This document shows, in pieces, positions 10,093 through 57,946 of a stretch of 64,000 bases of DNA (position 1 is the stretch's first letter; the number at the start of each line of letters is the position of its first letter). Origin of the DNA: an uncultured Candidatus Saccharibacteria bacterium (GTDB taxonomy: Bacteria > Patescibacteriota > Minisyncoccia > Phycocordibacterales > DSPV01); assembly GCA_964616075.1 (NCBI GenBank), contig CAZTRA010000001.1, positions 49,599-113,598 on the forward strand. Direction: 5' to 3'. The notes under the pieces were generated by a model. It did not search any database. It had not been told where the DNA came from and saw only the letters and a list, made by a program, of their open reading frames with translations. A program made the position numbers and the translations under genes.

Positions 10093-11496
10093 ATGAAGGA
10101 AAAAACGCGTCCCATGCTCCGTCTGCCACCACAGTCACTTGAGAGCGAACAAGCATTGCTCGGTTCAATCATGTTACGCCCTGATGCGGCGCTCGACATT
10201 ATGCCGAGCGTTCCACCAGACGCATTCTACGCTGAACGAAACCGACTGATTTATCAGACTATGATTGAACTAGCAGATCAACACTCGCCTATTGATTTAA
10301 TTTCTCTGGCGACAAAATTGTCAGAAAAAAAACTTCTTGAATCCGTCGGGGGGCGAGCCTACCTCGCTGACCTACTAGGTACAGTTCCTTCAGCAGCAAA
10401 CATTGAATACTACGCAGAGATTGTAGCCGGCAAATACCTGCTACGACGACTTATCGAGGCCTCAGAGCGCGTGGGACAACTAGGATACAGCGAGGATCGC
10501 AATGTTTCTGAACTCATAGACGAAGCGCAGCGAGTGATTTTTGACGTAGCTAACGCGTCGTCTCATGGCGTTAAATTTGTTGAATTAAGACACGCACTTG
10601 GAGAAGCGTGGAATCGAATCGACACCTTACACAAAAATAAACACGAGCTCCGTGGTGTTCCTACCGGCTTTAAGAAACTTGACGGACTACTTGCTGGTCT
10701 ACAAAAATCAGACCTTGTGATCCTCGCCGCACGCCCTTCTGTTGGTAAAACATCACTAGCACTTGATATTGCTCGCAACTCTGCCATTAAACACGGAACA
10801 CCAGTTGCTATTTTCTCTCTTGAAATGAGCTCGCAACAGCTTGTTGATCGTATGTTGGCGGCTCAATCGCAAGTAAACGCCTGGCGCATGCGCACTGGGT
10901 CACTCTCAACAGAAGATGAGTTTGGCCGTATCCGTGATGCACTTGATACCCTCTCCACCGCCCCTATATACATCAACGACGAACCGGGTATTACCGCTAT
11001 GAAGATGCGATCAGTTGCTCGACGACTGATGACAGAAAAAACACTCGGACTCATTGTTGTAGACTACTTACAACTCATGATGCCAATGCACACACGATCA
11101 TCTGATTCACTTGTACAACAAGTAACTGAAATTAGCCGCTCACTCAAACACCTTGCCCGTGAACTAAACGTACCAGTATTAGCACTCTCCCAGCTCTCCC
11201 GTGATGTTGAAAAACGTGGTGGTAAGCCGAGACTCTCTGACCTGCGTGACTCTGGTTCTATTGAACAAGATGCCGACGTTGTCATGTTTATTCATCGACC
11301 TGATCGATTTAACGAAAGTTCTGATCGCGCCAGTATCGCGGAAATACATGTCGAAAAACATCGCAACGGCCCGACAGGTAAAATTGACCTCTACTTTGAC
11401 GATCAACGAGCAACCTTCCTCGATCTTGAGAAAGATGATTTCGGAGCGCTTGCTAGTGGCATGACTAATACAACAGATAGCCCCAATGATTTCTAG
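10093..11496 (+). CDS. dnaB: replicative DNA helicase DnaB
   Basis: DnaB N-domain; Walker A ARPSVGKTSLALDIA; RecA-like C-domain motifs. Confidence 0.9.
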   Translation: MKEKTRPMLRLPPQSLESEQALLGSIMLRPDAALDIMPSVPPDAFYAERNRLIYQTMIELADQHSPIDLISLATKLSEKKLLESVGGRAYLADLLGTVPSAANIEYYAEIVAGKYLLRRLIEASERVGQLGYSEDRNVSELIDEAQRVIFDVANASSHGVKFVELRHALGEAWNRIDTLHKNKHELRGVPTGFKKLDGLLAGLQKSDLVILAARPSVGKTSLALDIARNSAIKHGTPVAIFSLEMSSQQLVDRMLAAQSQVNAWRMRTGSLSTEDEFGRIRDALDTLSTAPIYINDEPGITAMKMRSVARRLMTEKTLGLIVVDYLQLMMPMHTRSSDSLVQQVTEISRSLKHLARELNVPVLALSQLSRDVEKRGGKPRLSDLRDSGSIEQDADVVMFIHRPDRFNESSDRASIAEIHVEKHRNGPTGKIDLYFDDQRATFLDLEKDDFGALASGMTNTTDSPNDF

Positions 11497-26264: not shown

Positions 26265-27088
26265 AGCGAGGACGAGGTTGTTGCCACTAATTTCTTAAAA
26301 GGCATAATCGCCACAAAACCAATTTCTTGCATATTCACCATGGGCGCAATACCGAGCACTTTAAGCGAACCTGCGGAAGCAACACCAAGCGCCGCAATCG
26401 TACCTACGGGAGTTGCACGATTTTCTGACAAAACAACAACGTCCCCAACATCCACATCCATACCTCTGGGTACCACGGCCTGCATCATACCCCCACCAAC
26501 ACCAGACACCACAATCGGTACATTTTTCTTATGCAATACAAACGTATGTGATTCACCGGAACTTGAAAAGAAACGAATACGCGCTGTTTTTCCAAATACG
26601 GCATCAACAAAACCAATCACCGCACCCCCCGCTACCGCAACATAATCACCCACTTCTACAAACGAAGATTCTTTAATCGCAACAAACGCGGTGTCATACA
26701 GCGACACCGGTGGTCGAGAAATAATTGGAGCAACAATCTTTGCATCAACATCTGTAAAGCCAAAGGCAAGATCCTCCAAATCACTACGCAGGATATCAAT
26801 CAATACGTCTTTTCCTCCTTCCTCAGCTAATTGACGCTTTAATTCACGATTCTCAATGATAAGTGATGATTTTGTTTTAATAAGTGCCAATAGACCAAAA
26901 AAAGATTCTTTCACAACCCCTTGCTCCTTTAAAATAGGCTTGGTGACAGTAAGCATCACAGGAGTCGCAAGGTACTGCACGTGTACATATGAAAGTATGG
27001 ATAACACAGAGATAATAACGACCCCTTTGAAAAGAATCGTTGGTTTTGACACACCACCACCATAACTAAAACGATTGTTCTTCGTCAT
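26261..27088 (-). CDS. mreC: rod shape-determining protein MreC
   Basis: N-terminal TM, coiled-coil and beta-rich C-domain; mreB-adjacent. Confidence 0.7.
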   Translation of the reverse strand: MTKNNRFSYGGGVSKPTILFKGVVIISVLSILSYVHVQYLATPVMLTVTKPILKEQGVVKESFFGLLALIKTKSSLIIENRELKRQLAEEGGKDVLIDILRSDLEDLAFGFTDVDAKIVAPIISRPPVSLYDTAFVAIKESSFVEVGDYVAVAGGAVIGFVDAVFGKTARIRFFSSSGESHTFVLHKKNVPIVVSGVGGGMMQAVVPRGMDVDVGDVVVLSENRATPVGTIAALGVASAGSLKVLGIAPMVNMQEIGFVAIMPFKKLVATTSSSL

Positions 27089-28124
27089 TCAAAATCAATA
27101 TATCTTTATATCGAGTCAAATCTTCAAGAATAACGCCTGTCCCGCGCGCCACAGCCGTCAAAGGCTCTTCAGTGATATGTACCGGAATATGCGTATATTC
27201 TTGAATCGCCCGATCAATACCTCGCAAAAGCGCACCGCCACCAGTCAAATGCATACCGCGCTGCATCACATCGGCAACAACCTCAGGAGGAGCAGTCTCC
27301 ACCACCTCTTTTACCGATTCAAGAAACACTTCAATTGAAGGACCAATTGCTTCACGAATATCCGAATCAGTAATAACAACCTCACGAGGCAGCCCCGTGA
27401 CCAAATCCCGGCCTTTCATTGTCGCCTCAATAGGATCATCTCCCGGTAGCACAGATCCAAGTGCAAGTTTCATATCTTCTGCTGTTTTTTCTCCAACTAA
27501 AATTTTAAACTCGCTACGGATATATGACATGATATCTGCATTCAAACGATCCCCGGCAATTTTTAAATTTTTTGAACGCACGATACCCCCCAACGAAATA
27601 ATAGCAATATCTGTCGTGCCCCCACCAATATCAATAATCATGCTACCAACCGGTTCGTGTACCGGCAATCGGATACCAATTGCAGCTGCCATTGGCTCCT
27701 CAACAATGTGCACCTCTCGAGCACCAGTGTTCCTTGTCGCATCACAAACTGCACGAACCTCGACATTTGTCACCCCACACGGCACACCAACCACCACACG
27801 TGGACCAAACATGCGCTTATTCTTCTCTTGAGCACGTCGCATCAAATAGGCAATCATTTCTTCCGTAACTTCAAAATCAGAAATAACCCCATCGACCACC
27901 GGTCGCACAGCACGAATGTGTCCCGGAGTCCGACCGAGCATATCTTTTGCTTGTTTACCAACCGCTACCACCTGGCCCGTCTTATCATTCACGGCAACAA
28001 CCGATGGTTCATTCACCACAATACCTTGCCCTTTTACATAGACGAGTGTATTGGCCGTACCAAGATCGATACCAATATCACTAGACCATAATTCATTTAT
28101 TTTTTTCTTTAAACGATTGATCAT
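27066..28124 (-). CDS. mreB: rod shape-determining protein MreB
   Basis: IGIDLGTANTLVYVKGQGIVVNEPSVVAV actin-fold phosphate-1 motif; DIGGGTTD. Confidence 0.9.
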   Translation of the reverse strand: MINRLKKKINELWSSDIGIDLGTANTLVYVKGQGIVVNEPSVVAVNDKTGQVVAVGKQAKDMLGRTPGHIRAVRPVVDGVISDFEVTEEMIAYLMRRAQEKNKRMFGPRVVVGVPCGVTNVEVRAVCDATRNTGAREVHIVEEPMAAAIGIRLPVHEPVGSMIIDIGGGTTDIAIISLGGIVRSKNLKIAGDRLNADIMSYIRSEFKILVGEKTAEDMKLALGSVLPGDDPIEATMKGRDLVTGLPREVVITDSDIREAIGPSIEVFLESVKEVVETAPPEVVADVMQRGMHLTGGGALLRGIDRAIQEYTHIPVHITEEPLTAVARGTGVILEDLTRYKDILILNDEEQSF

Positions 28125-31797: not shown

Positions 31798-32499
31798 CTA
31801 ACATCCTACCAAATGCTCCAAAAGCATTTTAACCGACGACGATCGATCCATCACATATATTTTCACCAATCGTACCGCTTCCAAAAAACGAACACTATCT
31901 GTGGTATTCTCTTTTATAGCCATACGCTCGTACGTCAATCGCTCAAGATGAGCTATAAAACGAACCACGTCTGCTTTCGTCCTTTGACCATCAGACACGT
32001 CAGCAGCAATATCACGAACGATCTTTAATCGATCAACAATCAAAGCAGATAAGAACTTCTCGGCAACATAGAACATTGGATCTTGGAGAGTATCTGGTTC
32101 AGTTAAATGAATAAATACACGCGACCGAATTGTCGGCAAGAGACTATCATCAGTTGGCATAATAAAAAAGAAATGCACACCCATGATTGGCTCCTCCAGT
32201 GTTTTGAGTAACGCATTTTGAGCTTCTCTAGTTACACTATTCGCTTCAATAATGAAAAATCGACGACTCCCCAGTGGAGTAATGCGTGCGTGTTCACTAA
32301 TCATACGACCATCATCAACCCCCACAACATCAAACGTGAATGAAGTCACATCCGGATTACCAACAACCGGCACCCCGAGCGTATCATTAAAATATGTCAC
32401 TAATGCTCCTTTTAGCACTTCACGATCACCAACAAGTACGTGCGCATGGTGAAGTCCCGCTGATTCACCAATAACCGCTCGAAGATTCGGTCTGTTCAT
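31798..32499 (-). CDS. holB: DNA polymerase III delta-prime subunit-like (clamp loader, P-loop degenerate)
   Basis: SRC-like motif LLPTIRSRVF; AAA+ fold without a functional Walker A. Confidence 0.55.
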   Translation of the reverse strand: MNRPNLRAVIGESAGLHHAHVLVGDREVLKGALVTYFNDTLGVPVVGNPDVTSFTFDVVGVDDGRMISEHARITPLGSRRFFIIEANSVTREAQNALLKTLEEPIMGVHFFFIMPTDDSLLPTIRSRVFIHLTEPDTLQDPMFYVAEKFLSALIVDRLKIVRDIAADVSDGQRTKADVVRFIAHLERLTYERMAIKENTTDSVRFLEAVRLVKIYVMDRSSSVKMLLEHLVGC

Positions 32500-33496: not shown

Positions 33497-34510
33497 TTAT
33501 CTTTTTGCCAAAATTGCTTTTTTATAGGTTGAAAGATGTTGCAAAGCAATACCGGTACCCCGGGCTACACACAAGAGCGGGTCTTTAGCGAGTTGTGCCT
33601 TCACACCGGTCCGCCGAAACACGAGCTCAGGAAAATTGCGGAGCAACGCGGAACCGCCCGTCATGGTAATGCCTCGATCAATAATATCAGCCGCGAGCTC
33701 TGGCGGTGTTTCCTGCAAGACATCTTTGATTGCTTTAATCATTTCTCGTAGCTCTTTAGTAAGCGCTTTCACAATTTCATTGGTCTTCACTTCGGCTGTA
33801 CGTGGTAAGCCGGTCAAAAAATCACGCCCTTTAATAATTACCGAGAGTTCTTCTTCAATGGGTATCGCAGAACCAACCTCAACTTTTATCCGCTCGGCCA
33901 TCGAATCACCAATCGCCAGATTAAATGTCTTTTTGATGTAATCAGTGATAGCTGCATCCATCTTGTTCCCAGCACACTTCACTGACTTTGAAGAGACAAT
34001 GCCGCCAAGTGAAATGACCGCTACATCAGTCGTACCCCCGCCAATATCCACGACCATATGCCCCACCGCTTCGTGAATCGGAATACCGGCGCCAATCGCC
34101 GCGAGTACCGGCTCTTTAACAACATACGCGTTCTTCGCTCCGGCACGAATCGCCGCCTCGATAACTGCACGACGTTCAGTCGAAGTAATACCTGCCGGCA
34201 CCGACACCATCACATCAGGGCGCCACACATTCCACCGACCAAGCGCTTTATTGATAAAATAACGCAACATTGCTTCAGTAACCCGATAATCAGCAATCAC
34301 CCCATCTTTCATAGGACGATACGCGATAATATTCTCGGGCGTACGACCAATCATCGCTTTCGCTTCACTTCCAACAGCAACAATACGCTTATCTTGTTCA
34401 GACACAGCGACAACAGTCGGCTCAGCCAACACAATCCCCTTTTTTGGCACAAAAACAAGCGTATTTGCAGTTCCCAGATCAATACCAATTTTTTGAGGAA
34501 ATAGCGACAT
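33497..34510 (-). CDS. second MreB-family actin homolog (MreB/Mbl paralog)
   Basis: IGIDLGTANTLVFVPKKGIVLAEPTVVAV; DIGGGTTD. Confidence 0.85.
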   Translation of the reverse strand: MSLFPQKIGIDLGTANTLVFVPKKGIVLAEPTVVAVSEQDKRIVAVGSEAKAMIGRTPENIIAYRPMKDGVIADYRVTEAMLRYFINKALGRWNVWRPDVMVSVPAGITSTERRAVIEAAIRAGAKNAYVVKEPVLAAIGAGIPIHEAVGHMVVDIGGGTTDVAVISLGGIVSSKSVKCAGNKMDAAITDYIKKTFNLAIGDSMAERIKVEVGSAIPIEEELSVIIKGRDFLTGLPRTAEVKTNEIVKALTKELREMIKAIKDVLQETPPELAADIIDRGITMTGGSALLRNFPELVFRRTGVKAQLAKDPLLCVARGTGIALQHLSTYKKAILAKR

Positions 34511-34659: not shown

Positions 34660-35967
34660 TTAAGATTCACACACTTCAGATACTCGGGTAATAGGAACCC
34701 CGATTGCGCGCAAACGCTCTTCAATACGTTCGTACCCTCGATCAATATTGTAGGCATTACCAACTCTTGTCTCCCCTTCAGCAATAATACCAGCCATAAT
34801 GTACGCCAAACCTGCACGCAAATCAGGACCTTCCAATTCCTTGCCACGTAACGGTGTAGGGCCTTTGATGATAGCATGCTGCGAATCGTACATTTTGATA
34901 TCAGCTCCCATACGCACAAGATCTTGAGTGTACGATAAACGACCTTCAAAAATTGTTTCAAAGAGCGTACTCTCGCCATGAGACTGAGTCAAAAAAACTA
35001 CCATTGGTGCCTGCACATCAGTCGGAAATCCCGGATACTCATGTGTGCGCAAAGAAAGTGGCTTAAACACGGTTCCTGGTTTTGGTGCTCTAATACGAAT
35101 AAAATCGGAGCCAACCTCAAGTGGTACTCCCACATAACGAAGAGATTCAATTAACGACTCACAATGAGTCGGGTCACACGAAGCAATCGTTACATCTTTT
35201 GCAGCAAGCGCTGCCAATAATATAAAACTACCAGCCTCAATACGATCCGGCATCGTCTCATACGGACGTACTGCTTTCAGCCGTCCGCCACCAACGATTG
35301 TAATAGTTGAAGTGCCAGCTCCAGTGATATGAGCACCTGAATCATTCAAAAATGTAGCAAGATGTGCGATTTCAGGCTCCATCGCACAATTCTTAAGCAC
35401 CGTTGTACCAACTGCCTGGGTTGCTGCCATCATAAAGGTCTCAGTAGCGGTCACTGATTGCGTACGAAAAAAGATAGTTGCGGCCTGTAGTTTACCACCA
35501 CGCGCAGTGATAATAAAACGCTCATCTTGTTCCTCAACTGTGGCTCCCATTTTTTCATAACCTTCCAAAAAAAGATCAATGGGGCGTGTACCAATAACAC
35601 ACCCACCTGGGTACGGGAACGATACTTTTCCAAATCGTGCAAGTATCGGACCAGTCACCACTACAGACGCACGCATTCGTTTAGCAAGCACACGATCAAA
35701 TTCACACGAATGAAAAGCACTCGCATCAAGAGATAATGCCCCTGTACCGCGCTCAATATGTGCTCCTAATTTCTCTATCAATTCACAGACACGAAACACA
35801 TCCTCAATATGTGGCACACGTGTGTAAGAAACATGTCCATCAAATAAAGGCGCAGCAGCCAGCGCCTTAAGTACTGCATTTTTAGCACCACCGACAGTAA
35901 TAACTCCTTCAAGCATTCGCTGCCCTGCCAATCCTTCGACAATAAAAGTTCCTTTTGCGGTGTACAT
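34660..35967 (-). CDS. murA: UDP-N-acetylglucosamine 1-carboxyvinyltransferase
   Basis: EPSP-synthase-fold MurA signature including the catalytic Cys region (PGGCVIGTRPID). Confidence 0.9.
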   Translation of the reverse strand: MYTAKGTFIVEGLAGQRMLEGVITVGGAKNAVLKALAAAPLFDGHVSYTRVPHIEDVFRVCELIEKLGAHIERGTGALSLDASAFHSCEFDRVLAKRMRASVVVTGPILARFGKVSFPYPGGCVIGTRPIDLFLEGYEKMGATVEEQDERFIITARGGKLQAATIFFRTQSVTATETFMMAATQAVGTTVLKNCAMEPEIAHLATFLNDSGAHITGAGTSTITIVGGGRLKAVRPYETMPDRIEAGSFILLAALAAKDVTIASCDPTHCESLIESLRYVGVPLEVGSDFIRIRAPKPGTVFKPLSLRTHEYPGFPTDVQAPMVVFLTQSHGESTLFETIFEGRLSYTQDLVRMGADIKMYDSQHAIIKGPTPLRGKELEGPDLRAGLAYIMAGIIAEGETRVGNAYNIDRGYERIEERLRAIGVPITRVSEVCES

Positions 35968-36916
35968 GAGAGTCCTATTGTACTTGAAAACTTGTCACAA
36001 AAACAAGGCACAGTCACAAAAAATAAAGAAACTTACTGTGATACTCAATAGCCAAACTCGTCAAGAGCGCGAATACCATAATTTTGCTACAGTAATACTT
36101 ATGAACATACGAACACTTCTATACACGGGTATTAGTATTGTGCTTGTTATTTTAGCGATTAGTATTTTTTCATTTCATGAAAAAGGCTACCGGATTTCTA
36201 TCTCGCCATTCTCTATCGTTAAACCTGCAACACTCACAATAATAAACGTTAAAGTCGGTGATGTGCTCCTTATTGGAGAGGAACCTCACCCGCTCGCAAT
36301 CGTAAATGGTGTAGCTACCCTATCCATCCCTCAAGGTGAACACGATGTAGTTATTGCTCGCACGGGAACATTCCCATATCGAAAAATAGTGACACTATCT
36401 AGCAATACCTCACATACCCTATATCCCCTCCTCCTCCCCACAACACCAACCGCTCGTATCATCAAAGAAGACGAAGAAAGTCAGGCACTTGAAACACTCA
36501 TACAAGAACGCCTTGCCCCAACAAAAGAGTACCCCCGAAAGGCTGCGTATACATCAAATCCAAACGAAACCATTTCTCTACATATAGAAAACACTTCAAT
36601 CATTGCAACATGGCATGGGGCACTCACCGCCGCACCACCACCATTTTGCACACCCGAATGCGCACCATCGTTTACCGTCACCACGATTAACACACCGATA
36701 AGAAATGTTGAGTTCTACCCAGGACGTGCCGACGTGGCCATCTTCTCAACAGAAGGAAATATCTACGCAATAGAGCTCGATAAAAGCCCCATTCAAAACT
36801 TTCAACCTATTTTTATGGGAGGAGCGGTTGAAACTCCCTTTATCACCGTACCAGACCGAAACGGTCTCTTTGTGATCGGCACATCATCAATCTTCAGTAT
36901 GGAGCTGCCGCTGTAG
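35960..36916 (+). CDS. hypothetical membrane-anchored protein with PEGA-like beta domain (start probably at MNIRTLLY, about 36104)
   Basis: TM helix then SIPQGEHDVVIARTGTFPYRKIVTL PEGA-like pattern. Confidence 0.4.
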   Translation: MYMRVLLYLKTCHKNKAQSQKIKKLTVILNSQTRQEREYHNFATVILMNIRTLLYTGISIVLVILAISIFSFHEKGYRISISPFSIVKPATLTIINVKVGDVLLIGEEPHPLAIVNGVATLSIPQGEHDVVIARTGTFPYRKIVTLSSNTSHTLYPLLLPTTPTARIIKEDEESQALETLIQERLAPTKEYPRKAAYTSNPNETISLHIENTSIIATWHGALTAAPPPFCTPECAPSFTVTTINTPIRNVEFYPGRADVAIFSTEGNIYAIELDKSPIQNFQPIFMGGAVETPFITVPDRNGLFVIGTSSIFSMELPL

Positions 36917-36922: not shown

Positions 36923-38896
36923 ATGTACATCATCGACGTTCTTCCCATCTCAAAAACGGCCCCGCTAGACACGCTCACCTATTTCTCTGCCCAACACATA
37001 GCGCCAGGAACACTAGTAACTATTCCTCTCAAAAACAAACAACCCTTCGGTTTAGTGGTTCGTGCCAGAAACGCTGCTGATGAAAAATCAGCACTGCGTA
37101 CAGCTGATTTTTCTTTAAAAAAAATCACAAATATTCTTGCCCCTTTCGCTTTCCCAAAATCGTTCCTCGATGCCGTTACAGAAACAGCTCACTATTTTGT
37201 TGGATCAATTGGCGCGACATTAAAATCACTCGTGCCACGTGTTGCCTTTGAAGAGTTACAGAGCAAAAAACAAACACCGCTCACTCCAGAAACCACGACA
37301 GAACAAGTTCCTCTTGAAGAAAAAACAGAGCGCCAGCAAAAAACCACACCGGAACGAATGGCCATGCAGGCAGGCGAAGTAGAACGATTTGCCCACTATC
37401 GAAGCATGGTTCGCAGCGAGTTTGCCAAAAAACGATCAGTCATCATTATCTTACCCACCATTGAAGAAGCGTGTCGAACAAAACTCGTCCTTGAAAAAGG
37501 AATCGAGTCGTACGTTGAAATTTTTCATAGCTCCATACAAAAGAAAAAACTGATGGATATATGGAAACGCATAAAGACGTCGCCCCACCCGCTCCTCATC
37601 ATCGGAACCTACCACGCGCTCTCCGCTCCACGAGAAGACCTCGGCATTATTATTGTTGAACGCGAAAGCTCTGCCCTATATAAACTGCAGCATGCTCCGT
37701 ACGTGGATGTACGCTTCTTTGCAGAGCGCCTTGCGTATCAAGCGCGTGCGGTATTTGTGTTGGGAGATATTTTACTACGCGTAGAAACAGCAGAGCGTGT
37801 ATTCTCTGGTGAATTATCTGAACTCGCACCGCTGCAGTGGCGCGCCCTTACCTCGGCAGCGATGCATATTAGCAACATGCACACACATACTGATCCCTCC
37901 CTCCAACCACACCAACGTGAGAAAAAACAGTTTCGTAGCATTGGCAAAGATCTTGCCACACTGGTAGAAAAAACGCACGAAGAAAATGCTCGCATGATCG
38001 TATTTGCAGGCAGAAAAGGTCTCGCTCCAACCACCACCTGCAACGACTGTAATAGTGTGGTGACATGTACCAATTGTAGTGCACCCGTACTACTCAAGCG
38101 CGGTGCCATCAACGAAAGTGGCGAGCAATCTGAAAACTATTTTTTATGTAACAAATGTGGGGAACGCCGAAGTGCACTTGAACGATGTAAAACGTGCGAT
38201 GGGTGGCGTCTCACACCGCTTGGCATCGGCATTGAACTTGTTGAACAGGAATTACGGACAACATTTCCCCATGTTCCTGTATTCAGGATTGATAAGGACC
38301 ATACCAAAAATGAAGCTGTTGCGGAAAAGTCAGCATCCGCATTTTATGCTACTCCAGGCGCCATCTTACTCATGACCGAGCTTGGATTTCTATATACAAC
38401 AGAACAAGTTGAATATACCGCCGTTGCATCAATAGACTCACTTTTTGCACTCCCTGATTTTAGAATTGCAGAAAAAGCATTTTCAACCCTTATACGTCTA
38501 CGAACCTTGGCAACTCGAGGATTTTTGGTACAAACACGAATGGCAGACCTCCCAATTTTTGACTATGCCAAAGCGGGAAGCTTGATCGATTTTTATCGCC
38601 ACGAACGTGCCGAAAGAAAAACCTTCCACTACCCACCAGACACCTTGCTTATTAAAATCTCAATCGAAGGAGATCGTGAAAAGACGTACGAGGCAATGAC
38701 CCGTTTAAAAGAAATACTGTCTCCCCATGAATTTGAAATTTACCCCGCCTTTATAAAAACTGTAAGAAATAAATTTATATTACACGGTCTCCTGCGGCTC
38801 CCATCAAAAGAGTGGCCTAACGAAAAGCTCCGGCATACCCTCCATTCACTCCAAAAACCTTTTTTCGTACGCGTTGATCCTGAAAGCCTATTGTAG
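36923..38896 (+). CDS. priA: PriA-like primosomal protein N' homolog lacking helicase Walker A/B motifs
   Basis: PriA-like N-terminus; Cys-rich zinc-binding module (CNDCNSVVTCTNC ... CNKCG ... CKTCDG); C-terminal domain. No GxGKT found; DEEH position reads ERES. Confidence 0.65.
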   Translation: MYIIDVLPISKTAPLDTLTYFSAQHIAPGTLVTIPLKNKQPFGLVVRARNAADEKSALRTADFSLKKITNILAPFAFPKSFLDAVTETAHYFVGSIGATLKSLVPRVAFEELQSKKQTPLTPETTTEQVPLEEKTERQQKTTPERMAMQAGEVERFAHYRSMVRSEFAKKRSVIIILPTIEEACRTKLVLEKGIESYVEIFHSSIQKKKLMDIWKRIKTSPHPLLIIGTYHALSAPREDLGIIIVERESSALYKLQHAPYVDVRFFAERLAYQARAVFVLGDILLRVETAERVFSGELSELAPLQWRALTSAAMHISNMHTHTDPSLQPHQREKKQFRSIGKDLATLVEKTHEENARMIVFAGRKGLAPTTTCNDCNSVVTCTNCSAPVLLKRGAINESGEQSENYFLCNKCGERRSALERCKTCDGWRLTPLGIGIELVEQELRTTFPHVPVFRIDKDHTKNEAVAEKSASAFYATPGAILLMTELGFLYTTEQVEYTAVASIDSLFALPDFRIAEKAFSTLIRLRTLATRGFLVQTRMADLPIFDYAKAGSLIDFYRHERAERKTFHYPPDTLLIKISIEGDREKTYEAMTRLKEILSPHEFEIYPAFIKTVRNKFILHGLLRLPSKEWPNEKLRHTLHSLQKPFFVRVDPESLL

Positions 38897-38919: not shown

Positions 38920-39507
38920 TTGGCTATAATGAGCTCCATGCAAAGAAAACTTCCCCCCTCCCCCGTTCCGATCCTCCAGCAAGACAACCCCCTATTACGG
39001 CATATCGCCCGACCAATTGAAGCAGCTGAGTTTAGTACACCATCCTTGCAACAGATCGTCATACGCATGAATGCCGCACTCGACAGCCAAGAGGACGGTG
39101 TTGCCATCGCCGCACCACAAATTGGCGAATCTGTTCGTCTATTTATTGTTGCAAAAAAAGCATTTTCTATTGACGAAGCGGTCGGCACGGAAACACCTGC
39201 GACAAAAAAACGAATCATAGTACCAAAGGAAAATATTGTATTTATCAATCCCACCATTACGCGCTCATCAAAAAAAACACAAAGGATGGATGAGGGGTGC
39301 CTTTCGGTCCGCTTCTTATACGGCTCGGTACAACGAGCAGAAAAAGTAACAGTCGAAGCGTATGATATGACGGGTAAAAAATTTACTTACCACGGCTCTG
39401 GCCTTATTGCAGAAATTTTTCAACATGAAATAGACCATCTAAACGGCATTCTCTTTATTGATAAAGCAACGCACGTTCGAGAACTACCTCCGGAAACCTA
39501 TGCATAA
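38920..39507 (+). CDS. def: peptide deformylase
   Basis: GVAIAAPQIG, EGCLSV and QHEIDHLNG, the three PDF motifs. Confidence 0.9.
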   Translation: MAIMSSMQRKLPPSPVPILQQDNPLLRHIARPIEAAEFSTPSLQQIVIRMNAALDSQEDGVAIAAPQIGESVRLFIVAKKAFSIDEAVGTETPATKKRIIVPKENIVFINPTITRSSKKTQRMDEGCLSVRFLYGSVQRAEKVTVEAYDMTGKKFTYHGSGLIAEIFQHEIDHLNGILFIDKATHVRELPPETYA

Positions 39508-40372
39508 TCACACACCAACCGTTGTATTCTGGGGCACATCAGAATTTTCTGTCATTACATTTGATACCCTTCTCTCTCTCGGAATACGACCACTATTCCT
39601 CGTCACCACACTAGACAAACCTCAAGGTCGCCATCTCAAACTCACTCCTTCTCCGGCAAAACAGTGGGCGGAAAAAAATAACATTACGGTGTTGCAACCA
39701 GACAAACTAAAAAATCCTCCGTTTGCAAACATACTCGCATCACATGCACCAACACAGGGCTACGACATCTTTATCGTATCCTCATACGGAAAAATAATCC
39801 CTCCTGATGTACTACGCTTGCCAAAAAAAGGCGTACTTAATATTCATCCGTCACTACTCCCCAAGTACCGTGGTCCCTCACCAATACAAAGTGCTATTCT
39901 TGCAGATGATGCCCACACAGGTGTCACGATTATGTGTATGGATGAAGAAATGGACCATGGACCAATTATCGCGCAGAAAGAAGTTTCTATTCACCCATGG
40001 CCACAATCCACACGCGCACTCAAAAAAATACTAGGAACAGAAGGGGCAACAATGCTCGGTGCACTTTTACCCACATGGATAGAAGGCACAATACAACCGA
40101 CTCCGCAAAACCATAGCGAGGCAACCTACACAAAAAAATTCGAAAAATCACATGGCGAGATTACTGCAACAGATACCCCATACCAGCGATATCTCAAGTT
40201 TCAAGCATTCCATGATTCAATTGGAATATATTACTTTGATACCGCCCGAGGAAAACCAGTGCGTGTAAAAATAACTGAGGCTGTCTACGAATCTAACACT
40301 TTTATAATAAAAAAAGTTATTCCAGAAGGAAAAAAAGAAATGCCATACGATACATACATGCGCACCACATAA
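39500..40372 (+). CDS. fmt: methionyl-tRNA formyltransferase (start taken at MHNHTP)
   Basis: formyltransferase N-domain (NIHPSLLPKYRGPSPIQSAIL) and C-terminal tRNA-binding domain; def-fmt synteny. Confidence 0.85.
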   Translation: MHNHTPTVVFWGTSEFSVITFDTLLSLGIRPLFLVTTLDKPQGRHLKLTPSPAKQWAEKNNITVLQPDKLKNPPFANILASHAPTQGYDIFIVSSYGKIIPPDVLRLPKKGVLNIHPSLLPKYRGPSPIQSAILADDAHTGVTIMCMDEEMDHGPIIAQKEVSIHPWPQSTRALKKILGTEGATMLGALLPTWIEGTIQPTPQNHSEATYTKKFEKSHGEITATDTPYQRYLKFQAFHDSIGIYYFDTARGKPVRVKITEAVYESNTFIIKKVIPEGKKEMPYDTYMRTT

Positions 40373-47543: not shown

Positions 47544-48050
47544 CTATTGGCCGGCTTTTTTGATTTTTTCAAGATCAATTTTCTTCATTGGCATAAATGC
47601 CGTAGTGACTGCGTCTGCTTTTTGAGGATCTCGCATCATTTCATCCAGAATTCTTGGAACCACTTGCCACGTAACGCCAAATTTATCTTTGCACCATCCG
47701 CACTGTTCAGCTTCAGGCACCGCTGAAAGTTTCTCCCAGAAGAAATCAATTTCTTCTTGTGTTTCGCATTCAATGATAAACGAGGTAGACCCATTAAGTT
47801 TGAACTGCTCAAACGGGCCGCCGTTTAAAGCCATAAAGCTACTTCCATCGAGCTCACATTCAGCTGTCAGAACAGACCCCTCGGGCCTACCGGACACTTC
47901 TTTAAATTCAGGAGCTTTAGGCGCTCTCGTAATATCGCCAAGTGTCGCTTCATGATGACCAGGAGCTGATCTAAACGTATCTACATAATATCGTACTGCC
48001 TCTTCTCCATCATTATTAATAAACCAGATGCACGTAATTAATTTGCTCAT
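47544..48050 (-). CDS. PhnB-like / VOC (glyoxalase-fold) family protein
   Basis: MSKLITCIWFINNDGEEAV ... FGVTWQVVP pattern typical of the PhnB/3-demethylubiquinone methyltransferase-like DUF. Confidence 0.65.
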   Translation of the reverse strand: MSKLITCIWFINNDGEEAVRYYVDTFRSAPGHHEATLGDITRAPKAPEFKEVSGRPEGSVLTAECELDGSSFMALNGGPFEQFKLNGSTSFIIECETQEEIDFFWEKLSAVPEAEQCGWCKDKFGVTWQVVPRILDEMMRDPQKADAVTTAFMPMKKIDLEKIKKAGQ

Positions 48051-48188
48051 TCCTTTTATTATACAGCATTAACTGATACATAATCCGGTTAGATTCACTA
48101 CTATTTGGGAAATGCAAAAAACCTACTCGCTTTACAGCTTTCAGCCTTTCGAGATTTTTACAATTTTTCCAAACCTACTACTTCAGAA

Positions 48189-48836
48189 CTAATTTGTAAG
48201 TTTATTCCATATAAAATCAATATGAGGATTCTCTTTCCATAATTCTAAAATTTGATTTCTCAATTCTTGATGTTGAGGGTATCCAGTATCTTCAATACCT
48301 TCTGGTAATAAGTGATTACACTCTATATTAAGTAAAACAGTTAAAGCTTCTTTAATATCATTATATTTTTCTGGGCCAATTCTTTCTTGTTCATCTGCTC
48401 CAAACTTATACCAAGTATAGAAGTGCCACAATTCGTGCATGACTGTTTGCAATGCAGAGTTATTAGACAAGCAAACAAAAAATAAATTCTCTTTTAAGGA
48501 ATAAGGACATCTGTTATTGATTGTTAGATATACTGTAATATCTTCTAGTAGAGATACTCCAAAAACTTTCTCTGCAATATTTTGAAATTCATCCGAAATA
48601 TCTTCAAAATCTTTTTGATACTCTTTAATTCTTTTATTTATATCAATCTTGTTGTCTGCGATATATGTATCTATAAATTTAGAAGTAGACCTTTCATCAG
48701 GATTTTTTCCTGCAAAGTTAATTAGTTGTTCATATGCTTTTGTTGGATTGGGAGAGTTATTAGAGCTTTTACCTTTATTTAACAAACACCAAATATCCTC
48801 ATCTTTTTTGTAAGTAAAATTTAATTGCATATACAA
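48189..48836 (-). CDS. hypothetical HExxH-motif protein on a markedly AT-rich segment
   Basis: VMHELWHFY; GC visibly lower than neighbours. Confidence 0.45.
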   Translation of the reverse strand: MYMQLNFTYKKDEDIWCLLNKGKSSNNSPNPTKAYEQLINFAGKNPDERSTSKFIDTYIADNKIDINKRIKEYQKDFEDISDEFQNIAEKVFGVSLLEDITVYLTINNRCPYSLKENLFFVCLSNNSALQTVMHELWHFYTWYKFGADEQERIGPEKYNDIKEALTVLLNIECNHLLPEGIEDTGYPQHQELRNQILELWKENPHIDFIWNKLTN

Positions 48837-48961
48837 ATTTTATCAAGAAAAGAAAGATAAAAACACTTTACTTTGCCTTACTTTACATTGGCTCCGCTTG
48901 TTGGATACGTTCAAAACTATTAACTGGGTGCGAGTGCAGATGGAATTGAGTGGGTTGAGTT

Positions 48962-48998
48962 TTATATAAAAGAAAACCCGCCTTCAGACGACGGGTTT
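48962..48998 (-). terminator. rho-independent terminator for 49020..49439
   Basis: aaacccg ... cgggttt with a T-rich run on minus. Confidence 0.45.
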
Positions 48999-49019
48999 CG
49001 TGTCTGGAAGCGGGTCAAA

Positions 49020-49439
49020 CTAATTCTTGATGGCACCGACCACTACTTGAGTTGCCCTTCTGATGGCATTGTAGGTAGCGTTGCGTTTGGCGGCATTGAT
49101 AAGCGACATACCAACCTTTGCGGGCAGGTACATGTCATGCCTAACCAACGTGGCGAGCCAGTGGACGGGGCCAACTGAAGTTCCACCATAGGAACAGCCG
49201 TCACGTATAACCGGCGTGTACTTTCCTTGGTCGTCTATTTCATCTTCAAGAACAACAAACGGATATGCTTTGTTCATGTCCTCCGGGCTCAAACATTGTT
49301 TCCCCTTGAGCTCCAGAATGTTATTCACTGCCTCCACCACCTCCGTTGCCCTGTGCCAACCCCAGGTGCTTTCTCTCGGGTAATCCGGGATGTAGAACCT
49401 GTAGATTGGAGGCATTACCATCTTAGACTGATGCGTCAT
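49020..49439 (-). CDS. hypothetical protein
   Basis: ORF with own terminator. Confidence 0.5.
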   Translation of the reverse strand: MTHQSKMVMPPIYRFYIPDYPRESTWGWHRATEVVEAVNNILELKGKQCLSPEDMNKAYPFVVLEDEIDDQGKYTPVIRDGCSYGGTSVGPVHWLATLVRHDMYLPAKVGMSLINAAKRNATYNAIRRATQVVVGAIKN

Positions 49440-49516
49440 TTTCTCTCCTTACCGCCTACGTGGCGATTGTGTAGGAAGTCCTGTTGTGCATAATGACTTG
49501 GCCACAGTGGTTTCGT

Positions 49517-49565
49517 CATAGCAGAGAAAAGCCAAGGGTTGGCTCCTCTCTGCCATGACGAATAT
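49517..49565. other. compound hairpin (13-bp outer stem with 1 mismatch enclosing an inner 6-bp stem-loop)
   Basis: cgtcatagcagag aaa agccaa ggg ttggct cct ctctgccatgacg. Confidence 0.4.
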
Positions 49566-49627
49566 ATCAAGGTTCCAATCCGATATAATAATAACATACT
49601 ATAAGGTATGTTGTCAACTGCTAGCTC

Positions 49628-49695
49628 CGGTGGATTACTAAGGATGTTTATCACAAAAAGCATCACAAGAGTACCAAGACCAAATACAAACTACT
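49628..49695 (+). repeat. left copy of about 70-bp imperfect direct repeat bounding the island (lies in a recombinase-like 3' fragment ...WITKDVYHKKH...)
   Basis: cggtggattactaaggatgtttatCacaaaaagcatcaCaagagtaccaagac... matches 57660-57756. Confidence 0.7.
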
Positions 49696-49748
49696 GAAAA
49701 CAGAAAACCGCCATCTCACGACAGTGGGTAACTGTGTTGAGATGGTGG

Positions 49749-49898
49749 TCAAGGATGGGTTGTAAGTATGATCCCACAAACGCCTCCAATCAAGGCAATC
49801 AGACCGAGAACGGTGTTGGTAATAGGGGTTTTTGATTTCACTGACCCTCCTACCATACAAGCTCCGATCAATATGCAAGCTAAGGCGACATATTTCAT
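49749..49898 (-). CDS. candidate 49-aa small hydrophobic protein (MKYVALACILIGACMVGGSVKS...) at the island edge
   Basis: ORF found by reading the minus strand; no good SD; speculative. Confidence 0.2.
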   Translation of the reverse strand: MKYVALACILIGACMVGGSVKSKTPITNTVLGLIALIGGVCGIILTTHP

Positions 49899-50086
49899 TA
49901 GTATAATTTGGTGTATTGTTTTGGCACACCTGGGTTCCTCCTGAAACCACTAGCCGTGTAAAAGAACATGTTAACATACTAACACGCTATATATATTTAG
50001 TCAAATTTGCTCCACATCGTGAACGAAGTTATAACCTATTTTAAGACCACGGATCAATACCATTACATCCCGAGTTTTAACTAAAA

Positions 50087-52903: not shown

Positions 52904-52906
52904 AAA

Positions 52907-55588: not shown

Positions 55589-55593
55589 AATTG

Positions 55594-57378: not shown

Positions 57379-57380
57379 AA

Positions 57381-57578
57381 TTATTTCTTCTTTTTCTTAG
57401 GAGGCTTTACATTAGAGGATTGCTCAAGGAACTGTCGCAGGTCGTCCTCGCTTATTCGCCAATATCCGACCTTTGAGGCTTTTAATTTGCCGTCGTGAAT
57501 GTAGCGAAAGATAGACCTTTCACTGACACGTAACGCTTCGGCTACTTCTTTAACGCTGAGAAATTTTGTGTTAGTCAT
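57381..57578 (-). CDS. excisionase-family helix-turn-helix DNA-binding protein (65 aa, Lys-rich tail); first gene of the operon, possible controller
   Basis: LSVKEVAEALRVSERSIFRYIHDGKLKASKVG.WRI matches the excisionase/MerR-like HTH pattern. Confidence 0.8.
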   Translation of the reverse strand: MTNTKFLSVKEVAEALRVSERSIFRYIHDGKLKASKVGYWRISEDDLRQFLEQSSNVKPPKKKKK

Positions 57579-57598
57579 AATTATTTTCTCCTTTTTAC

Positions 57599-57627
57599 AT
57601 TTTACTCCTTCAAAAACCCTGTGTCAA
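57599..57627 (-). promoter_or_regulatory. sigma70-like promoter TTGACA-17-TAAAAT with RBS AAGGAG for the HTH-mod-res-ATPase operon
   Basis: minus-strand ttgaca cagggtttttgaaggag taaaat gtaaaaaggagaaaataatt ATG. Confidence 0.55.
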
Positions 57628-57636
57628 AGTGTGTCA
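57620..57636. promoter_or_regulatory. direct repeat TGTGTCA-n3-TGTGTCA overlapping the -35, a candidate operator
   Basis: read directly. Confidence 0.3.
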
Positions 57637-57659
57637 TGTTGTTTCTTGATTAAATTATA

Positions 57660-57756
57660 CGGTGGATTACTAAGGATGTTTATGACAAAAAGCATCAATT
57701 ACTAAGGATGTTTATGACAAAAAGCATCAAGAGTATCAGGACAAAATACAGGTACT
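57660..57756 (+). repeat. right copy of the island-bounding direct repeat, containing a perfect 32-bp tandem duplication (57667-57698 / 57699-57730)
   Basis: ttactaaggatgtttatgacaaaaagcatcaa x2; matches 49628-49695. Confidence 0.8.
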
Positions 57757-57946
57757 TAAAATTGAACTTTCGGAACACAGAAAAGCAGACTACGATTACC
57801 AAACAACCATTGCTACAGTCATTTCCGTAGCACGCAGAGCAAGAAGTATGTTTGATAACAGTTCTAAACCTGCTGAAAAAAGAGCGTTCTTGAACTACCT
57901 ACTTCAGAACCCGACTATAAACGGAAAAAGCTATATTTTTCAATAG
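57662..57946 (+). pseudogene. 3' fragment of a recombinase-like gene (frame broken by the 32-bp duplication; no start codon)
   Basis: translation ...YDKKHQEYQDKIQVLKIELSEHRKADYDYQTTIATVISVARRARSMFDNSSKPAEKRAFLNYLLQNPTINGKSYIFQ* resembles the C-terminal tail of large serine recombinases; identity is inferred. Confidence 0.35.

What the first reader, a model, noticed from the sequence alone, without database searches (positions are those of the whole stretch)
36923..38896. PriA homolog that has lost helicase Walker A and DEEH motifs but keeps the zinc-binding and terminal domains
The N-terminal 3'-DNA-binding-like region, the Cys4/Cys4 zinc module (CNDCNSVVTCTNC, CNKCG, CKTCDG) and the C-terminal domain are all PriA-like. 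No GxGKT P-loop is present where PriA has GVTGSGKT. The segment aligning to IIVDEEHD reads IIVERESS.

That predicts an ATPase-dead PriA. It could act only as a fork-recognition scaffold, or be a pseudo-helicase adapted to a minimal replisome. This is relevant to replication restart in reduced genomes.
Basis: partly seen in the sequence, partly recalled or inferred. Interest (0 to 1): 0.5.

Follow-up and report, generated by a model that had tools for sequence, protein, structure and literature searches.

The report
Motor-less PriA replication-restart protein
This gene encodes a strongly conserved form of the bacterial replication-restart protein PriA whose ATP-binding motor site has been erased; hundreds of ultra-small Patescibacteria species share this state, which the papers I could search report only for Deinococcus-Thermus.

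Summary
ORF 36923-38896 (+, 657 aa) is a full-length PriA homologue. It has the 3'-end-binding domain, two RecA-like lobes, an eight-cysteine zinc module and the C-terminal domain. The AF2 model has pLDDT 92 and TM 0.80 to E. coli PriA 8FAK.

Every ATP-contacting helicase motif is gone:
- GVTGSGKT reads QAGEVERF.
- DEEH reads ERES.
- SAT reads DIL.
- Motif VI is disrupted by a 5-residue deletion.
- The winged-helix domain is replaced by a disordered linker.

This is not decay. None of about 380 relatives has a P-loop at that site, and at least 526 GTDB species genomes (Paceibacteria/Parcubacteria) encode the family. The replacement residues are themselves invariant (Q149, R155, D282). dN/dS is 0.06, and 0.05 in the "dead" lobe 1. 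The gene sits in the canonical priA-def-fmt position.

Residues that bind the leading-strand 3' end and form the lagging-strand ssDNA pore are kept. The best reading is a natural PriA pseudohelicase that recognises abandoned forks and recruits DnaB without unwinding.

There is precedent: D. radiodurans PriA (Lopper 2015) and E. coli priA300 (K230R). I rate it a new, more extreme variant of a known kind, of moderate interest. A second canonical priA elsewhere in the genome could not be excluded.

The parts
36923..38896 (+). priA-like ORF (657 aa plus stop): PriA pseudohelicase
   Evidence: ORF. PriA homology. AF2 pLDDT 92.2 and pTM 0.91. Foldseek top hit is E. coli PriA 8fak_H with TM 0.80.
36923..37237 (+). 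3'-end-binding domain (aa 1-105)
   Evidence: PF17764 hit on residues 17-105. E. coli Tyr18 aligns to Y20, 100% conserved. Lys61 aligns to K/R at 99%. Asp17 aligns to S/T. Pocket residues are taken from PMC5778457.
37238..37354 (+). Variable, probably disordered linker (aa 106-144) where canonical PriA has the winged-helix domain
   Evidence: pLDDT about 55-74. Mean major-residue frequency 0.21, against 0.53-0.60 in the other domains. dN/dS 0.12-0.57. The canonical LxxEQ helix and WH domain are gapped in the alignment.
37355..37987 (+). RecA-like lobe 1 (aa 145-355) without ATP-binding motifs
   Evidence: Secondary structure. Alignment. dN/dS 0.046-0.050. Motif Ia Pro (P178) and motif Ic Thr (T229) are kept.
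37367..37390 (+). Former Walker A site: QAGEVERF (aa 149-156)
   Evidence: Aligns to GVTGSGKT of five canonical PriAs. In the family the positions read Q 100%, an acidic run, R 100% at the K230 position, and Y/F. The model shows strand 145-149, a 2-residue turn, then helix 152-168.
37658..37669 (+). Former Walker B / DEEH site: ERES (aa 246-249)
   Evidence: In the family the positions read E79%/D20%, R/K, E99% and S/N.
37763..37777 (+). Former motif III: GDILL (aa 281-285) in place of GSATP
   Evidence: D282 is invariant.
38030..38206 (+). Cysteine-rich region with four CxxC pairs (two-zinc module; aa 370-428)
   Evidence: Eight invariant Cys plus D375, which aligns to E. coli D438. The CXXCXnCXXCXnCXXCXnCXXC definition is from PMC5778457.
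38207..38632 (+). RecA-like lobe 2 (aa 429-570, plus aa 356-369 before the CRR). Motif IV R364-K365-G366 is kept. Motifs V and VI are degenerate.
   Evidence: R427 aligns to R at 98%, R428 to R/K, G429 to G at 100%. E492 aligns to E/D and D513 to D at 82%. Motif VI carries a deletion. dN/dS 0.07.
38633..38893 (+). C-terminal domain (aa 571-657)
   Evidence: The TIGR00595 alignment runs to residue 642. The fold match covers it. P571-P572 and the VDP motif are shared with E. coli.
38938..39507 (+). def (peptide deformylase), immediately downstream
   Evidence: Pfam Pep_deformylase. The 189-aa gene call is. def is adjacent in 53 of 75 related loci.
39500..40372 (+). fmt (methionyl-tRNA formyltransferase), downstream of def
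   Evidence: Pfam Formyl_trans_N. fmt is adjacent in 45 of 63 related loci. The same priA-def-fmt order occurs in Bacillus velezensis.
36101..36916 (+). Upstream ORF of unknown function, ending 6 nt before the priA start; probably co-transcribed
   Evidence: No Pfam hit. Conserved upstream in only 10 of 62 loci.
10093..11496 (+). dnaB replicative helicase with intact Walker A (ARPSVGKT). It is the presumed client that PriA helps load; this link is inferred, not shown.
   Evidence: Pfam DnaB and DnaB_C. Walker A motif.

Best explanation
The gene encodes the PriA orthologue of a Patescibacteria (class Paceibacteria/Minisyncoccia) bacterium. It has become a pseudohelicase.

**What is kept.** The whole PriA body minus the winged-helix domain: 3'-end-binding domain, two RecA-like lobes, two-zinc cysteine-rich region and C-terminal domain.

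**What is lost.** The nucleotide-binding site, so it most likely cannot bind or hydrolyse ATP and cannot unwind DNA.

**Proposed mechanism.**
- Shown: the fold, the motif loss, the selection and the synteny.
- Inferred: the 3'BD captures the 3' end of the nascent leading strand at an abandoned fork or D-loop. Lobe 1, lobe 2, the CRR and the CTD close around single-stranded lagging-strand template (the 'CRR-up' pore seen in E. coli). This static complex serves as the landing pad for the replicative helicase DnaB, possibly through direct PriA-DnaB contact as in Deinococcus.
- Without a motor it should act only on forks that already expose roughly 9 or more nt of lagging-strand ssDNA, or after another helicase has cleared that strand.
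For: **1. PriA identity and fold.**
- Sequence matches to PriA.
- AF2 pLDDT is 92.2 for this protein and 88.6 for a 35%-identical relative.
- Both models hit PriA structures at E 1e-37 to 1e-43; the next fold family scores only about 1e-8 to 1e-9.

**2. Loss of every ATP-contacting motif.**
- Verified against five canonical PriAs from three phyla and by motif scans of the whole protein.
- The P-loop is replaced by a 2-residue turn in both models.

**3. Family-wide, not decay.**
- No P-loop occurs at the motif I position in the about 380 relatives checked. The two [AG]xxxxGK[ST] strings found lie elsewhere (P0099 residue 588, P0378 residue 200).
- 526 GTDB species genomes carry the family.
- The replacement residues Q149, R155 and D282 are invariant, and E248 is 99% conserved.
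- The lobes are as conserved as the DNA-binding domains.
- dN/dS is 0.063-0.071 overall, 0.05 in lobe 1 and 0.07 in lobe 2.

**4. Orthologous position.**
- The order is priA-def-fmt here and in most related loci.
- Canonical priA has the same order in Bacillus and Monoglobus, and priA-fmt in Listeria.

**5. DNA-handling residues retained.**
- Tyr18 and Lys61 of the 3'-end pocket.
- Motif IV R427/R428, which contact ssDNA in the pore.
- E492, D513 and H455, which stabilise the CRR-up state.
- The roles of these residues are taken from PMC5778457, PMC10175261 and PMC13594977.

**6. Precedent that restart does not need the motor.**
- E. coli PriA K230R/A lacks ATPase yet assembles primosomes and supports the PriA-PriB pathway (PMC5778457, PMC13594977).
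- D. radiodurans PriA has no ATPase or helicase activity, still binds forks and binds DnaB (PMC4504706).
- Here, as in Deinococcus-Thermus, the Walker lysine position holds Arg.

**7. Control for general P-loop erosion.** The same window encodes a DnaB with a normal Walker A, so P-loops are not eroding across this genome.
Against: - No biochemistry exists. ATPase loss, fork binding and DnaB recruitment are all inferred.
- I could not scan the full genome, so a second, canonical priA elsewhere is not excluded.
- The winged-helix domain, which contacts parental duplex in E. coli, is missing, so fork recognition may differ from the E. coli model.
- Asp17 of the 3'-end pocket is Ser/Thr, and Gly37 has no aligned counterpart.
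- PriB and DnaT, the E. coli partners that dock on the CRR, were not looked for, so the downstream loading route is unknown.
- E. coli work reports a possible second, weaker nucleotide site of unknown location (PMC5778457). I cannot rule that out here.
Confidence: 0.75

Rival explanations
1. It is a decaying paralogue or pseudogene: a relic of priA losing function while an intact priA elsewhere does the work.
For: All catalytic motifs are lost. TIGR00595 scores below its trusted cut-off, 207.7 against 230.35. NCBI often labels relatives 'hypothetical protein'. The whole genome could not be searched.
Against: - dN/dS is 0.06, and the 'dead' lobes are as constrained as the rest.
- The ORF is intact at about 630-660 aa in about 380 relatives and 526 species.
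- The substituted residues are invariant.
- The fold prediction is confident.
- The gene holds the canonical priA-def-fmt position.
- No other PriA-like sequence occurs in the window or in 1.26 Mb of related loci.
Confidence: 0.03
2. It is a functional pseudohelicase, but it coexists with a separate canonical PriA helicase elsewhere in the genome. It would then be a specialised accessory rather than the sole restart initiator.
For: Nothing positive. Only 64 kb of this genome and +-10 kb around 80 related loci were visible to me.
Against: - The gene sits in the orthologous priA slot.
- Each of the 80 best genome loci comes from a different genome and holds one copy.
- Reduced genomes rarely keep duplicate replication genes. 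This last point is general knowledge, not something I tested.
Confidence: 0.08
3. It still hydrolyses ATP or another NTP through a non-canonical site and remains a motor.
For: Charged residues persist in the cleft: R155, E246, E248, D282 and R527. E. coli literature mentions a second, weaker nucleotide site of unknown location.
Against: - There is no glycine-rich loop anywhere in the protein.
- The P-loop is shortened to a 2-residue turn in both models.
- An acidic D/E run occupies the phosphate-binding position.
- The motif VI arginine-finger region is deleted or rearranged.
- The single K230R change already abolishes E. coli PriA ATPase (PMC5778457).
Confidence: 0.04
4. The PriA scaffold has been repurposed for a job other than replication restart, for example a nucleic-acid-binding role linked to translation start, given co-transcription with def and fmt.
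For: Tight operon-like packing with def and fmt. The catalytic function is lost.
Against: - Canonical, helicase-active priA has the same def-fmt neighbours in Bacillota, so the context says nothing new.
- Residues specific to 3'-end capture and ssDNA-pore formation are conserved.
- PriA is reported as the only restart protein conserved across all bacterial phyla (PMC5778457), so a lineage without any PriA function would be unusual.
Confidence: 0.07

Closest known systems
Deinococcus radiodurans (Deinococcus-Thermus) PriA pseudohelicase (Lopper, Boone & Morrow 2015, PLoS One, PMC4504706)
   Same: It is a natural PriA with degenerate Walker A and B motifs and Arg in place of the Walker lysine. 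Experiments showed no ATPase or helicase activity, retained ssDNA and fork binding, and binding to DnaB. This is the model for how the present protein probably works.
   Different: - It belongs to a different phylum.
- The paper describes 'poor matches' to motifs I and II. Here motifs I, II, III, V and VI are all unrecognisable, the P-loop is structurally deleted and the winged-helix domain is absent.
- I had no Deinococcus-Thermus sequence, so shared ancestry versus independent loss was not tested.
- There is no biochemistry for the present family.
E. coli PriA K230R / K230A (priA300), an engineered ATPase-dead PriA
   Same: Lys to Arg at the same position. These variants lack ATPase, helicase and translocase activity. 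They still assemble primosomes in vitro and support the PriA-PriB restart pathway in vivo (PMC5778457; PMC13594977).
   Different: It is a single laboratory substitution in an otherwise canonical helicase that works with PriB, DnaT and DnaC. priA300 fails in the PriA-PriC pathway and in Mu transposition. The present protein is a natural, lineage-wide, multi-motif loss, and no PriB or DnaT partner has been identified for it.
Canonical PriA helicase (E. coli / K. pneumoniae; PDB 4NL4, 6DGD, 8FAK; TIGR00595)
   Same: It shares the 3'BD, two RecA-like lobes, eight-Cys two-zinc CRR and CTD. TM-score is 0.80 to 8FAK. PriA-signature residues are shared outside the ATP site. The priA-def-fmt context is the same as in Bacillota.
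   Different: There are no motifs I, II, III or VI, and no WH domain. It scores below the TIGR00595 trusted cut-off. Sequence identity is about 18-21% in the Foldseek structural alignments.
E. coli PriA winged-helix deletion (PDB 6DCR)
   Same: A PriA lacking the WH domain still folds. It is the second-best structural match (TM 0.66).
   Different: It is an engineered deletion with an active ATPase core. Here the WH loss is natural and is combined with loss of the motor.
Actinobacterial PriA (PRK14873-type); from my memory only
   Same: I recall database notes that mycobacterial PriA lacks detectable helicase motifs. If that is correct, it would be a third degenerate lineage.
   Different: This was not verified here. 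The NCBIfam PRK14873 models match the query only weakly (E 3.8e-26 to 2e-8), and I found no paper on the point.

Membership tests
PriA (primosomal protein N' / replication restart protein) | N-terminal 3'-end DNA-binding domain | tested here: met
   PF17764 scores 25.0 bits, above the 22.7 cut-off. Tyr18 and Lys61 equivalents are conserved.
PriA (primosomal protein N' / replication restart protein) | SF2 core of two RecA-like lobes with the PriA-specific arrangement | tested here: met
   AF2 pLDDT 92.2. Foldseek to 8fak_H gives E 5.7e-43 and TM 0.80; all nine top hits are PriA. The result is reproduced with relative P0118.
PriA (primosomal protein N' / replication restart protein) | Cysteine-rich region CxxC-Xn-CxxC-Xn-CxxC-Xn-CxxC binding two zinc ions | tested here: met
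   Eight Cys are invariant in 118 sequences. Zinc binding itself was not tested.
PriA (primosomal protein N' / replication restart protein) | C-terminal domain | tested here: met
   The TIGR00595 alignment runs to residue 642. The fold match covers the CTD. Two relatives carry PF18074.
PriA (primosomal protein N' / replication restart protein) | Helicase motifs I (Walker A), II (DEEH), III and VI, i.e. the ATPase/helicase site | tested here: not met
   No relative has a P-loop at the motif I position.
PriA (primosomal protein N' / replication restart protein) | Winged-helix domain between the 3'BD and the helicase core | tested here: not met
   It is replaced by a variable linker of about 40 aa. 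Longer relatives simply have longer low-complexity linkers.
PriA (primosomal protein N' / replication restart protein) | Score above the curated equivalog cut-off (TIGR00595) | tested here: not met
   207.7 bits against a cut-off of 230.35.
PriA (primosomal protein N' / replication restart protein) | Orthologous genomic position (priA-def-fmt, as in Bacillota) | tested here: met
   Window layout. def is adjacent in 53 of 75 related loci and fmt in 45 of 63. Bacillus, Monoglobus and Listeria serve as controls.
PriA (primosomal protein N' / replication restart protein) | Binds abandoned forks or D-loops and promotes DnaB reloading | not testable with these tools
   This needs biochemistry or genetics.
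PriA pseudohelicase (Deinococcus-Thermus type, PMC4504706) | Clear PriA homology with degenerate motifs I and II | tested here: met
PriA pseudohelicase (Deinococcus-Thermus type, PMC4504706) | Arg in place of the Walker A lysine | tested here: met
   R155 is 100% conserved at the K230 column.
PriA pseudohelicase (Deinococcus-Thermus type, PMC4504706) | No ATPase or helicase activity, with retained fork/ssDNA binding and DnaB binding | not testable with these tools
   This needs purified protein.
PriA pseudohelicase (Deinococcus-Thermus type, PMC4504706) | Phylogenetic membership of the Deinococcus-Thermus PriA clade (common origin of the loss) | not tested
   No Deinococcus-Thermus PriA sequence was obtainable with the tools. 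The different phylum, shorter length and missing WH domain suggest an independent loss, but this was not shown.

The most novel reading that the evidence does not exclude
The erased ATP site has been rebuilt into an internal 'nucleotide mimic'.

**The idea.**
- The invariant Gln149 and the acidic run at 151-154 sit where the P-loop held the phosphates.
- Together with Arg155 (the Walker-lysine position), Glu246/Glu248 (former DEEH), Asp282 (former motif III) and Arg527 (possibly the last motif VI arginine), they would form a fixed salt-bridge network across the inter-lobe cleft.
- This network would lock the two lobes and bias the cysteine-rich region toward the rotated, ssDNA-encircling 'CRR-up' state. 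In E. coli, that state needs the right fork substrate and is the one that recruits downstream factors.
- The protein would then be a constitutively 'armed' restart switch, not merely a broken helicase.

**Evidence so far (hints only).**
- These replacement residues are invariant or nearly so.
- Both AF2 models resemble the fork-bound 8FAK state (TM 0.80 and 0.72) more than the apo or dsDNA-bound states (0.58-0.68).
- I had no model coordinates and no AF2 control on a canonical PriA.
Probability: 0.2. Interest if true: 0.6.

Novelty: new variant of a known kind. Interest (0 to 1): 0.4.

Why it matters
**What it changes in the literature.**
- A whole class of ultra-small, reduced-genome bacteria, at least 526 species genomes here, carries a PriA whose motor site is completely erased yet under strong selection. 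That turns a single oddity into a recurring evolutionary outcome.
- It supports the view that PriA's essential role is structural: fork recognition, capture of lagging-strand ssDNA and recruitment of the replicative helicase. Unwinding would then be an add-on.

**What it offers experimentally.**
- The family is a compact (about 630 aa), WH-less, motor-less natural minimal PriA for structural work.
- It gives a testable prediction: restart only on forks with pre-exposed lagging-strand ssDNA.

**Practical annotation point.** These proteins fall below the TIGR00595 cut-off and are often called 'hypothetical'. HMM-based surveys may therefore wrongly score PriA as absent in Patescibacteria.

Tried and rejected
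- **Shifted Walker A/B.** Rejected by whole-protein motif scans, Pfam at E<=1 and an alignment with five canonical PriAs.
- In one search my E. coli reference lacked Met1, so all its positions were one too low. This was corrected. A MAFFT --add alignment misplaced the ex-Walker-A segment (Q149 against Q166). I disregarded it in favour of the anchored alignments.
- **Second priA.** tblastn with E. coli PriA and with the query found only the one gene in the window and in 80 related loci.
- **How far the loss extends beyond Paceibacteria.**
  - A walk from the most divergent hit, P0118, returned only the same motif-less family.
  - An exhaustive search with the 58-aa ex-Walker-A segment did the same: 150 representatives at E<=1e-3, one of them (P0239) a repeat-protein false positive.
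  - Tool listings are capped at the best 120-150 hits, so canonical PriAs of other Patescibacteria classes, if they exist, never surfaced.
- **Comparison with Deinococcus-Thermus PriA.** No sequence was obtainable. It is not in PDB, not in the plasmid set, and the paper's figures are not held.
- **First genome scan.** It was repeated with 13 sequences.
- **AFDB Foldseek library.** Not installed.
- **Bhattacharyya 2014 PNAS (PMC3910646).** Not held. The SSB-tail pocket was therefore not examined.
- **Promoter/terminator scan around the gene.** No more promoter-like sites than in shuffles. Terminator-like sites were more numerous than in shuffles (13 against a mean of 5.6), but I did not examine them further.
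- **Source assembly.** No paper mentions GCA_013565695.
- **Literature.** I found no paper linking PriA to Patescibacteria or CPR beyond gene lists.
Full report
**1. What is at the coordinates**

- The finding's coordinates match an ORF exactly: 36923..38896 on the + strand, ATG start, 657 aa.
- Pfam recognises only the PriA 3'-DNA-binding domain (residues 17-105, 25 bits against a 22.7 cut-off). It finds no DEAD, ResIII or Helicase_C domain even at E<=1.
- NCBIfam TIGR00595 (priA) matches residues 159-642 at E 2.7e-61. The score of 207.7 bits is below the trusted cut-off of 230.35.
- Solved PriA structures (K. pneumoniae 4NL4/6DGD, E. coli 8FAK/6DCR) match at E 7e-35 to 5e-31. Every alignment starts at residue 158, immediately after the place where Walker A should be.

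**2. Motif check**

I aligned the protein and its relatives with E. coli PriA (fetched). I later added canonical PriAs from Bacillus velezensis, Listeria, Monoglobus and Acaryochloris. The columns are unambiguous because the flanking strand and helix align.

| Canonical motif | This protein |
|---|---|
| I: GVTGSGKT(E)(V/I)YL | QAGEVERFAHYR |
| II: DEEH | ERES |
| III: GSATP | GDILL |
| V: GTQM(I/L)AKG | MTELGFLY |
| VI: QVxGRAGR | no counterpart; region is 5 residues shorter |

- The LxxEQ helix before motif I and the winged-helix domain are absent.
- Scans of the whole protein find no P-loop, GK[ST], DExx, SAT or GRxGR string anywhere. This disposes of the 'shifted but intact' alternative.
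- In one search my E. coli reference lacked its first Met, so positions there are one too low. Searches use the correct numbering, in which the Walker lysine is K230.
- The eight CRR cysteines are present and invariant.
It is in fact understated.

**3. Fold**

- An AF2 model built on 118 relatives is confident: pLDDT 92.2, pTM 0.91.
- Its best PDB matches are all PriA. 8fak_H gives E 5.7e-43 and TM 0.80; 6dcr, 4nl4 and 6dgd give TM 0.58-0.67. The next fold family (Mfd, DEAD-box) scores only about 1e-8.
- Where canonical PriA has strand, eight-residue P-loop, then helix, the model has strand 145-149, a two-residue turn, then helix 152-168.
- Residues 115-144 are low-confidence linker.
- A second model, for the 35%-identical relative P0118, shows the same features (pLDDT 88.6; strand 131-135, turn, helix 138-154). 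It again matches 8FAK best, at TM 0.72.

**4. It is a family, not an accident**

- Two word-indexed searches and one exhaustive search returned about 380 relatives. They are almost all 620-700 aa, come from Patescibacteria/Parcubacteria/Paceibacterota/Minisyncoccia MAGs (Taylorbacteria, Zambryskibacteria, Nomurabacteria and others), and carry only PF17764.
- None has a P-loop at the expected site.
- A scan of one genome per GTDB species found 526 genomes encoding a relative.
- Within the family the substituted positions are themselves fixed:

| E. coli position | Family residue |
|---|---|
| G224 | Q, 100% |
| T226-G229 | D/E run |
| K230 | R, 100% |
| D320 | E/D |
| E322 | E, 99% |
| S356 | D, 100% |

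- The two lobes are as conserved as the DNA-binding domains. Mean major-residue frequency is 0.55-0.60 in the lobes, 0.53-0.58 in the DNA-binding domains and 0.21 in the linker.
- I compared the window gene with strain-level variants recovered from other sequencing runs. dN/dS is 0.063-0.071 overall, 0.05 in lobe 1, 0.07 in lobe 2 and 0.12-0.57 in the linker.
- This refutes pseudogene decay.

**5. Orthology**

- The gene is followed by def and fmt.
- In related loci, def is adjacent in 53 of 75 cases and fmt in 45 of 63.
- Canonical, helicase-intact priA shows the same order in Bacillus velezensis (coaBC-priA-def-fmt-rsmB). Monoglobus has priA-def and Listeria has priA-fmt.
- No other PriA-like sequence exists in the 64-kb window or in 1.26 Mb of related loci.
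- The whole genome could not be examined, so a second priA elsewhere remains formally possible.

**6. What is kept, and what that suggests**

Using residue roles from the literature, the family retains the following:
- Tyr18 (100%) and Lys61 (K/R) of the 3'-end pocket; Asp17 is Ser/Thr.
- The motif Ia proline and the motif Ic threonine.
- Motif IV R427 (98%), R428 (R/K) and G429 (100%), which contact lagging-strand ssDNA in the PriA pore.
- E492 (E/D), D513 (82%) and H455 (H 61%, Y 27%; K in this protein), which stabilise the rotated 'CRR-up' state.
- D438 of the CRR, and PriA signatures such as GxG(T/I)E, RIDxD, PDFRxxE, QT and LPP.

So the ATP-contacting residues are gone, while the DNA-contacting and domain-docking residues remain.

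**7. Mechanism proposed**

- Shown: this is a PriA-fold protein without a nucleotide site, under selection, in the priA locus.
- Inferred: it recognises abandoned forks or D-loops through the 3'BD. It encloses lagging-strand ssDNA with HD1, HD2, CRR and CTD, and serves as a platform for loading DnaB. The window encodes a normal DnaB with Walker A ARPSVGKT.
- In E. coli the CRR-up pore forms only when about 9 or more nt of lagging-strand ssDNA are available, and duplex lagging strands must first be unwound (PMC13594977). A motor-less PriA should therefore be restricted to forks with pre-existing ssDNA, or depend on another helicase.

**8. Comparison with what is known**

- Engineered K230R/A PriA lacks ATPase. 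It still assembles primosomes and supports the PriA-PriB pathway (PMC5778457; PMC13594977).
- D. radiodurans PriA, and Deinococcus-Thermus PriAs generally, have degenerate motifs I and II with the same Lys-to-Arg change. The D. radiodurans protein was shown to lack ATPase and helicase activity while binding forks and DnaB (PMC4504706).
- The review literature treats Deinococcus as the sole exception.
- I found no paper describing PriA of Patescibacteria/CPR. The held library is incomplete.
- The present family is therefore a further lineage of a known kind, PriA pseudohelicases. Its degeneration is more radical: all ATP motifs are lost, the P-loop is structurally deleted and the WH domain is missing.
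- Whether the loss is independent of the Deinococcus-Thermus one, and whether it extends to other Patescibacteria classes, could not be tested.

**9. Speculative extension**

- The invariant charged residues that now fill the former ATP site may form an intramolecular nucleotide mimic that fixes the lobes and favours the pore state.
- The only support is their invariance, plus the better fit of both AF2 models to fork-bound 8FAK than to apo PriA.
- I had no coordinates and no control model of a canonical PriA. I give this reading 0.2.

**10. Verdict**

- I rate it a new variant of a known kind, of moderate interest (0.4).
- Its value lies in showing that loss of the PriA motor is a lineage-wide, selected state in a very large bacterial group. 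It also provides a minimal natural PriA for mechanistic work, and flags an annotation blind spot (below the TIGR00595 cut-off, often labelled 'hypothetical').

Noticed in passing
window 48000-58100: There is a low-GC island (0.34-0.39 against about 0.44) next to tRNA-Asn (57991-58066, -). It holds a type III restriction-modification pair: mod at 55594-57378 (-) and res at 52907-55588 (-). It also holds a 938-aa ORF (50087-52903, -) whose C-terminus matches the PADLOC 'Ppl' defence protein (E 6.6e-22). It looks like an acquired defence island.
   Followed up: partly
window 10093-13714: A replication/repair cluster: dnaB (10093-11496, +) with an intact Walker A, recR (11511-12140, +) and rmuC (12641-13714, -). 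rplI lies upstream at 5722-6168 (-). No DciA, DnaC or DnaI-type loader was recognised among the ORFs scanned.
   Followed up: partly
window 31798-32499 (-): A short (233 aa) DNA polymerase III delta'-like protein. It matches only the middle of the Pfam DNA_pol3_delta2 profile (positions 82-154 of 161). This may be another trimmed replication component.
   Followed up: no
window 27066-28124 (-) and 33497-34510 (-): Two full-length MreB paralogues lie about 5 kb apart. One sits next to mreC and a PBP2-like transpeptidase.
   Followed up: no
window 36101-36916 (+): An ORF of unknown function (271-318 aa depending on start; no Pfam hit) ends 6 nt before priA. It is found upstream of priA in only 10 of 62 related loci.
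   Followed up: partly
whole window / L082: The identical gene lies on NCBI contig JACCDT011346198.1 (111,919 bp) of assembly GCA_013565695.1. A contig number above 11 million suggests a very large, probably eukaryotic, assembly that carries a Patescibacteria contaminant or associate. No paper mentions the accession.
   Followed up: partly
L002-L081 record titles: Many MAGs encoding this Paceibacteria-type PriA are titled 'uncultured Candidatus Saccharibacteria bacterium' (TPA assemblies). One is titled Nitrospira and one Victivallales. These look like generic or mis-binned labels rather than true taxonomy.
   Followed up: no
PLSDB records (e.g. NZ_CP030101.1 at 2.9 Mb, CP125156.1 at 5.4 Mb): Several 'plasmid' records in the plasmid collection are evidently whole or partial chromosomes (Listeria, Klebsiella, E. 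coli, Neisseria). This let me read canonical priA neighbourhoods there.
   Followed up: partly
related loci, upstream of priA: In many more distant relatives a + strand gene lies just upstream of priA and is only 24-29% identical to this window's MurA. It may be another EPSP-synthase-fold enzyme such as AroA, or a MurA paralogue. In this window MurA (34660-35967) is on the opposite strand.
   Followed up: no
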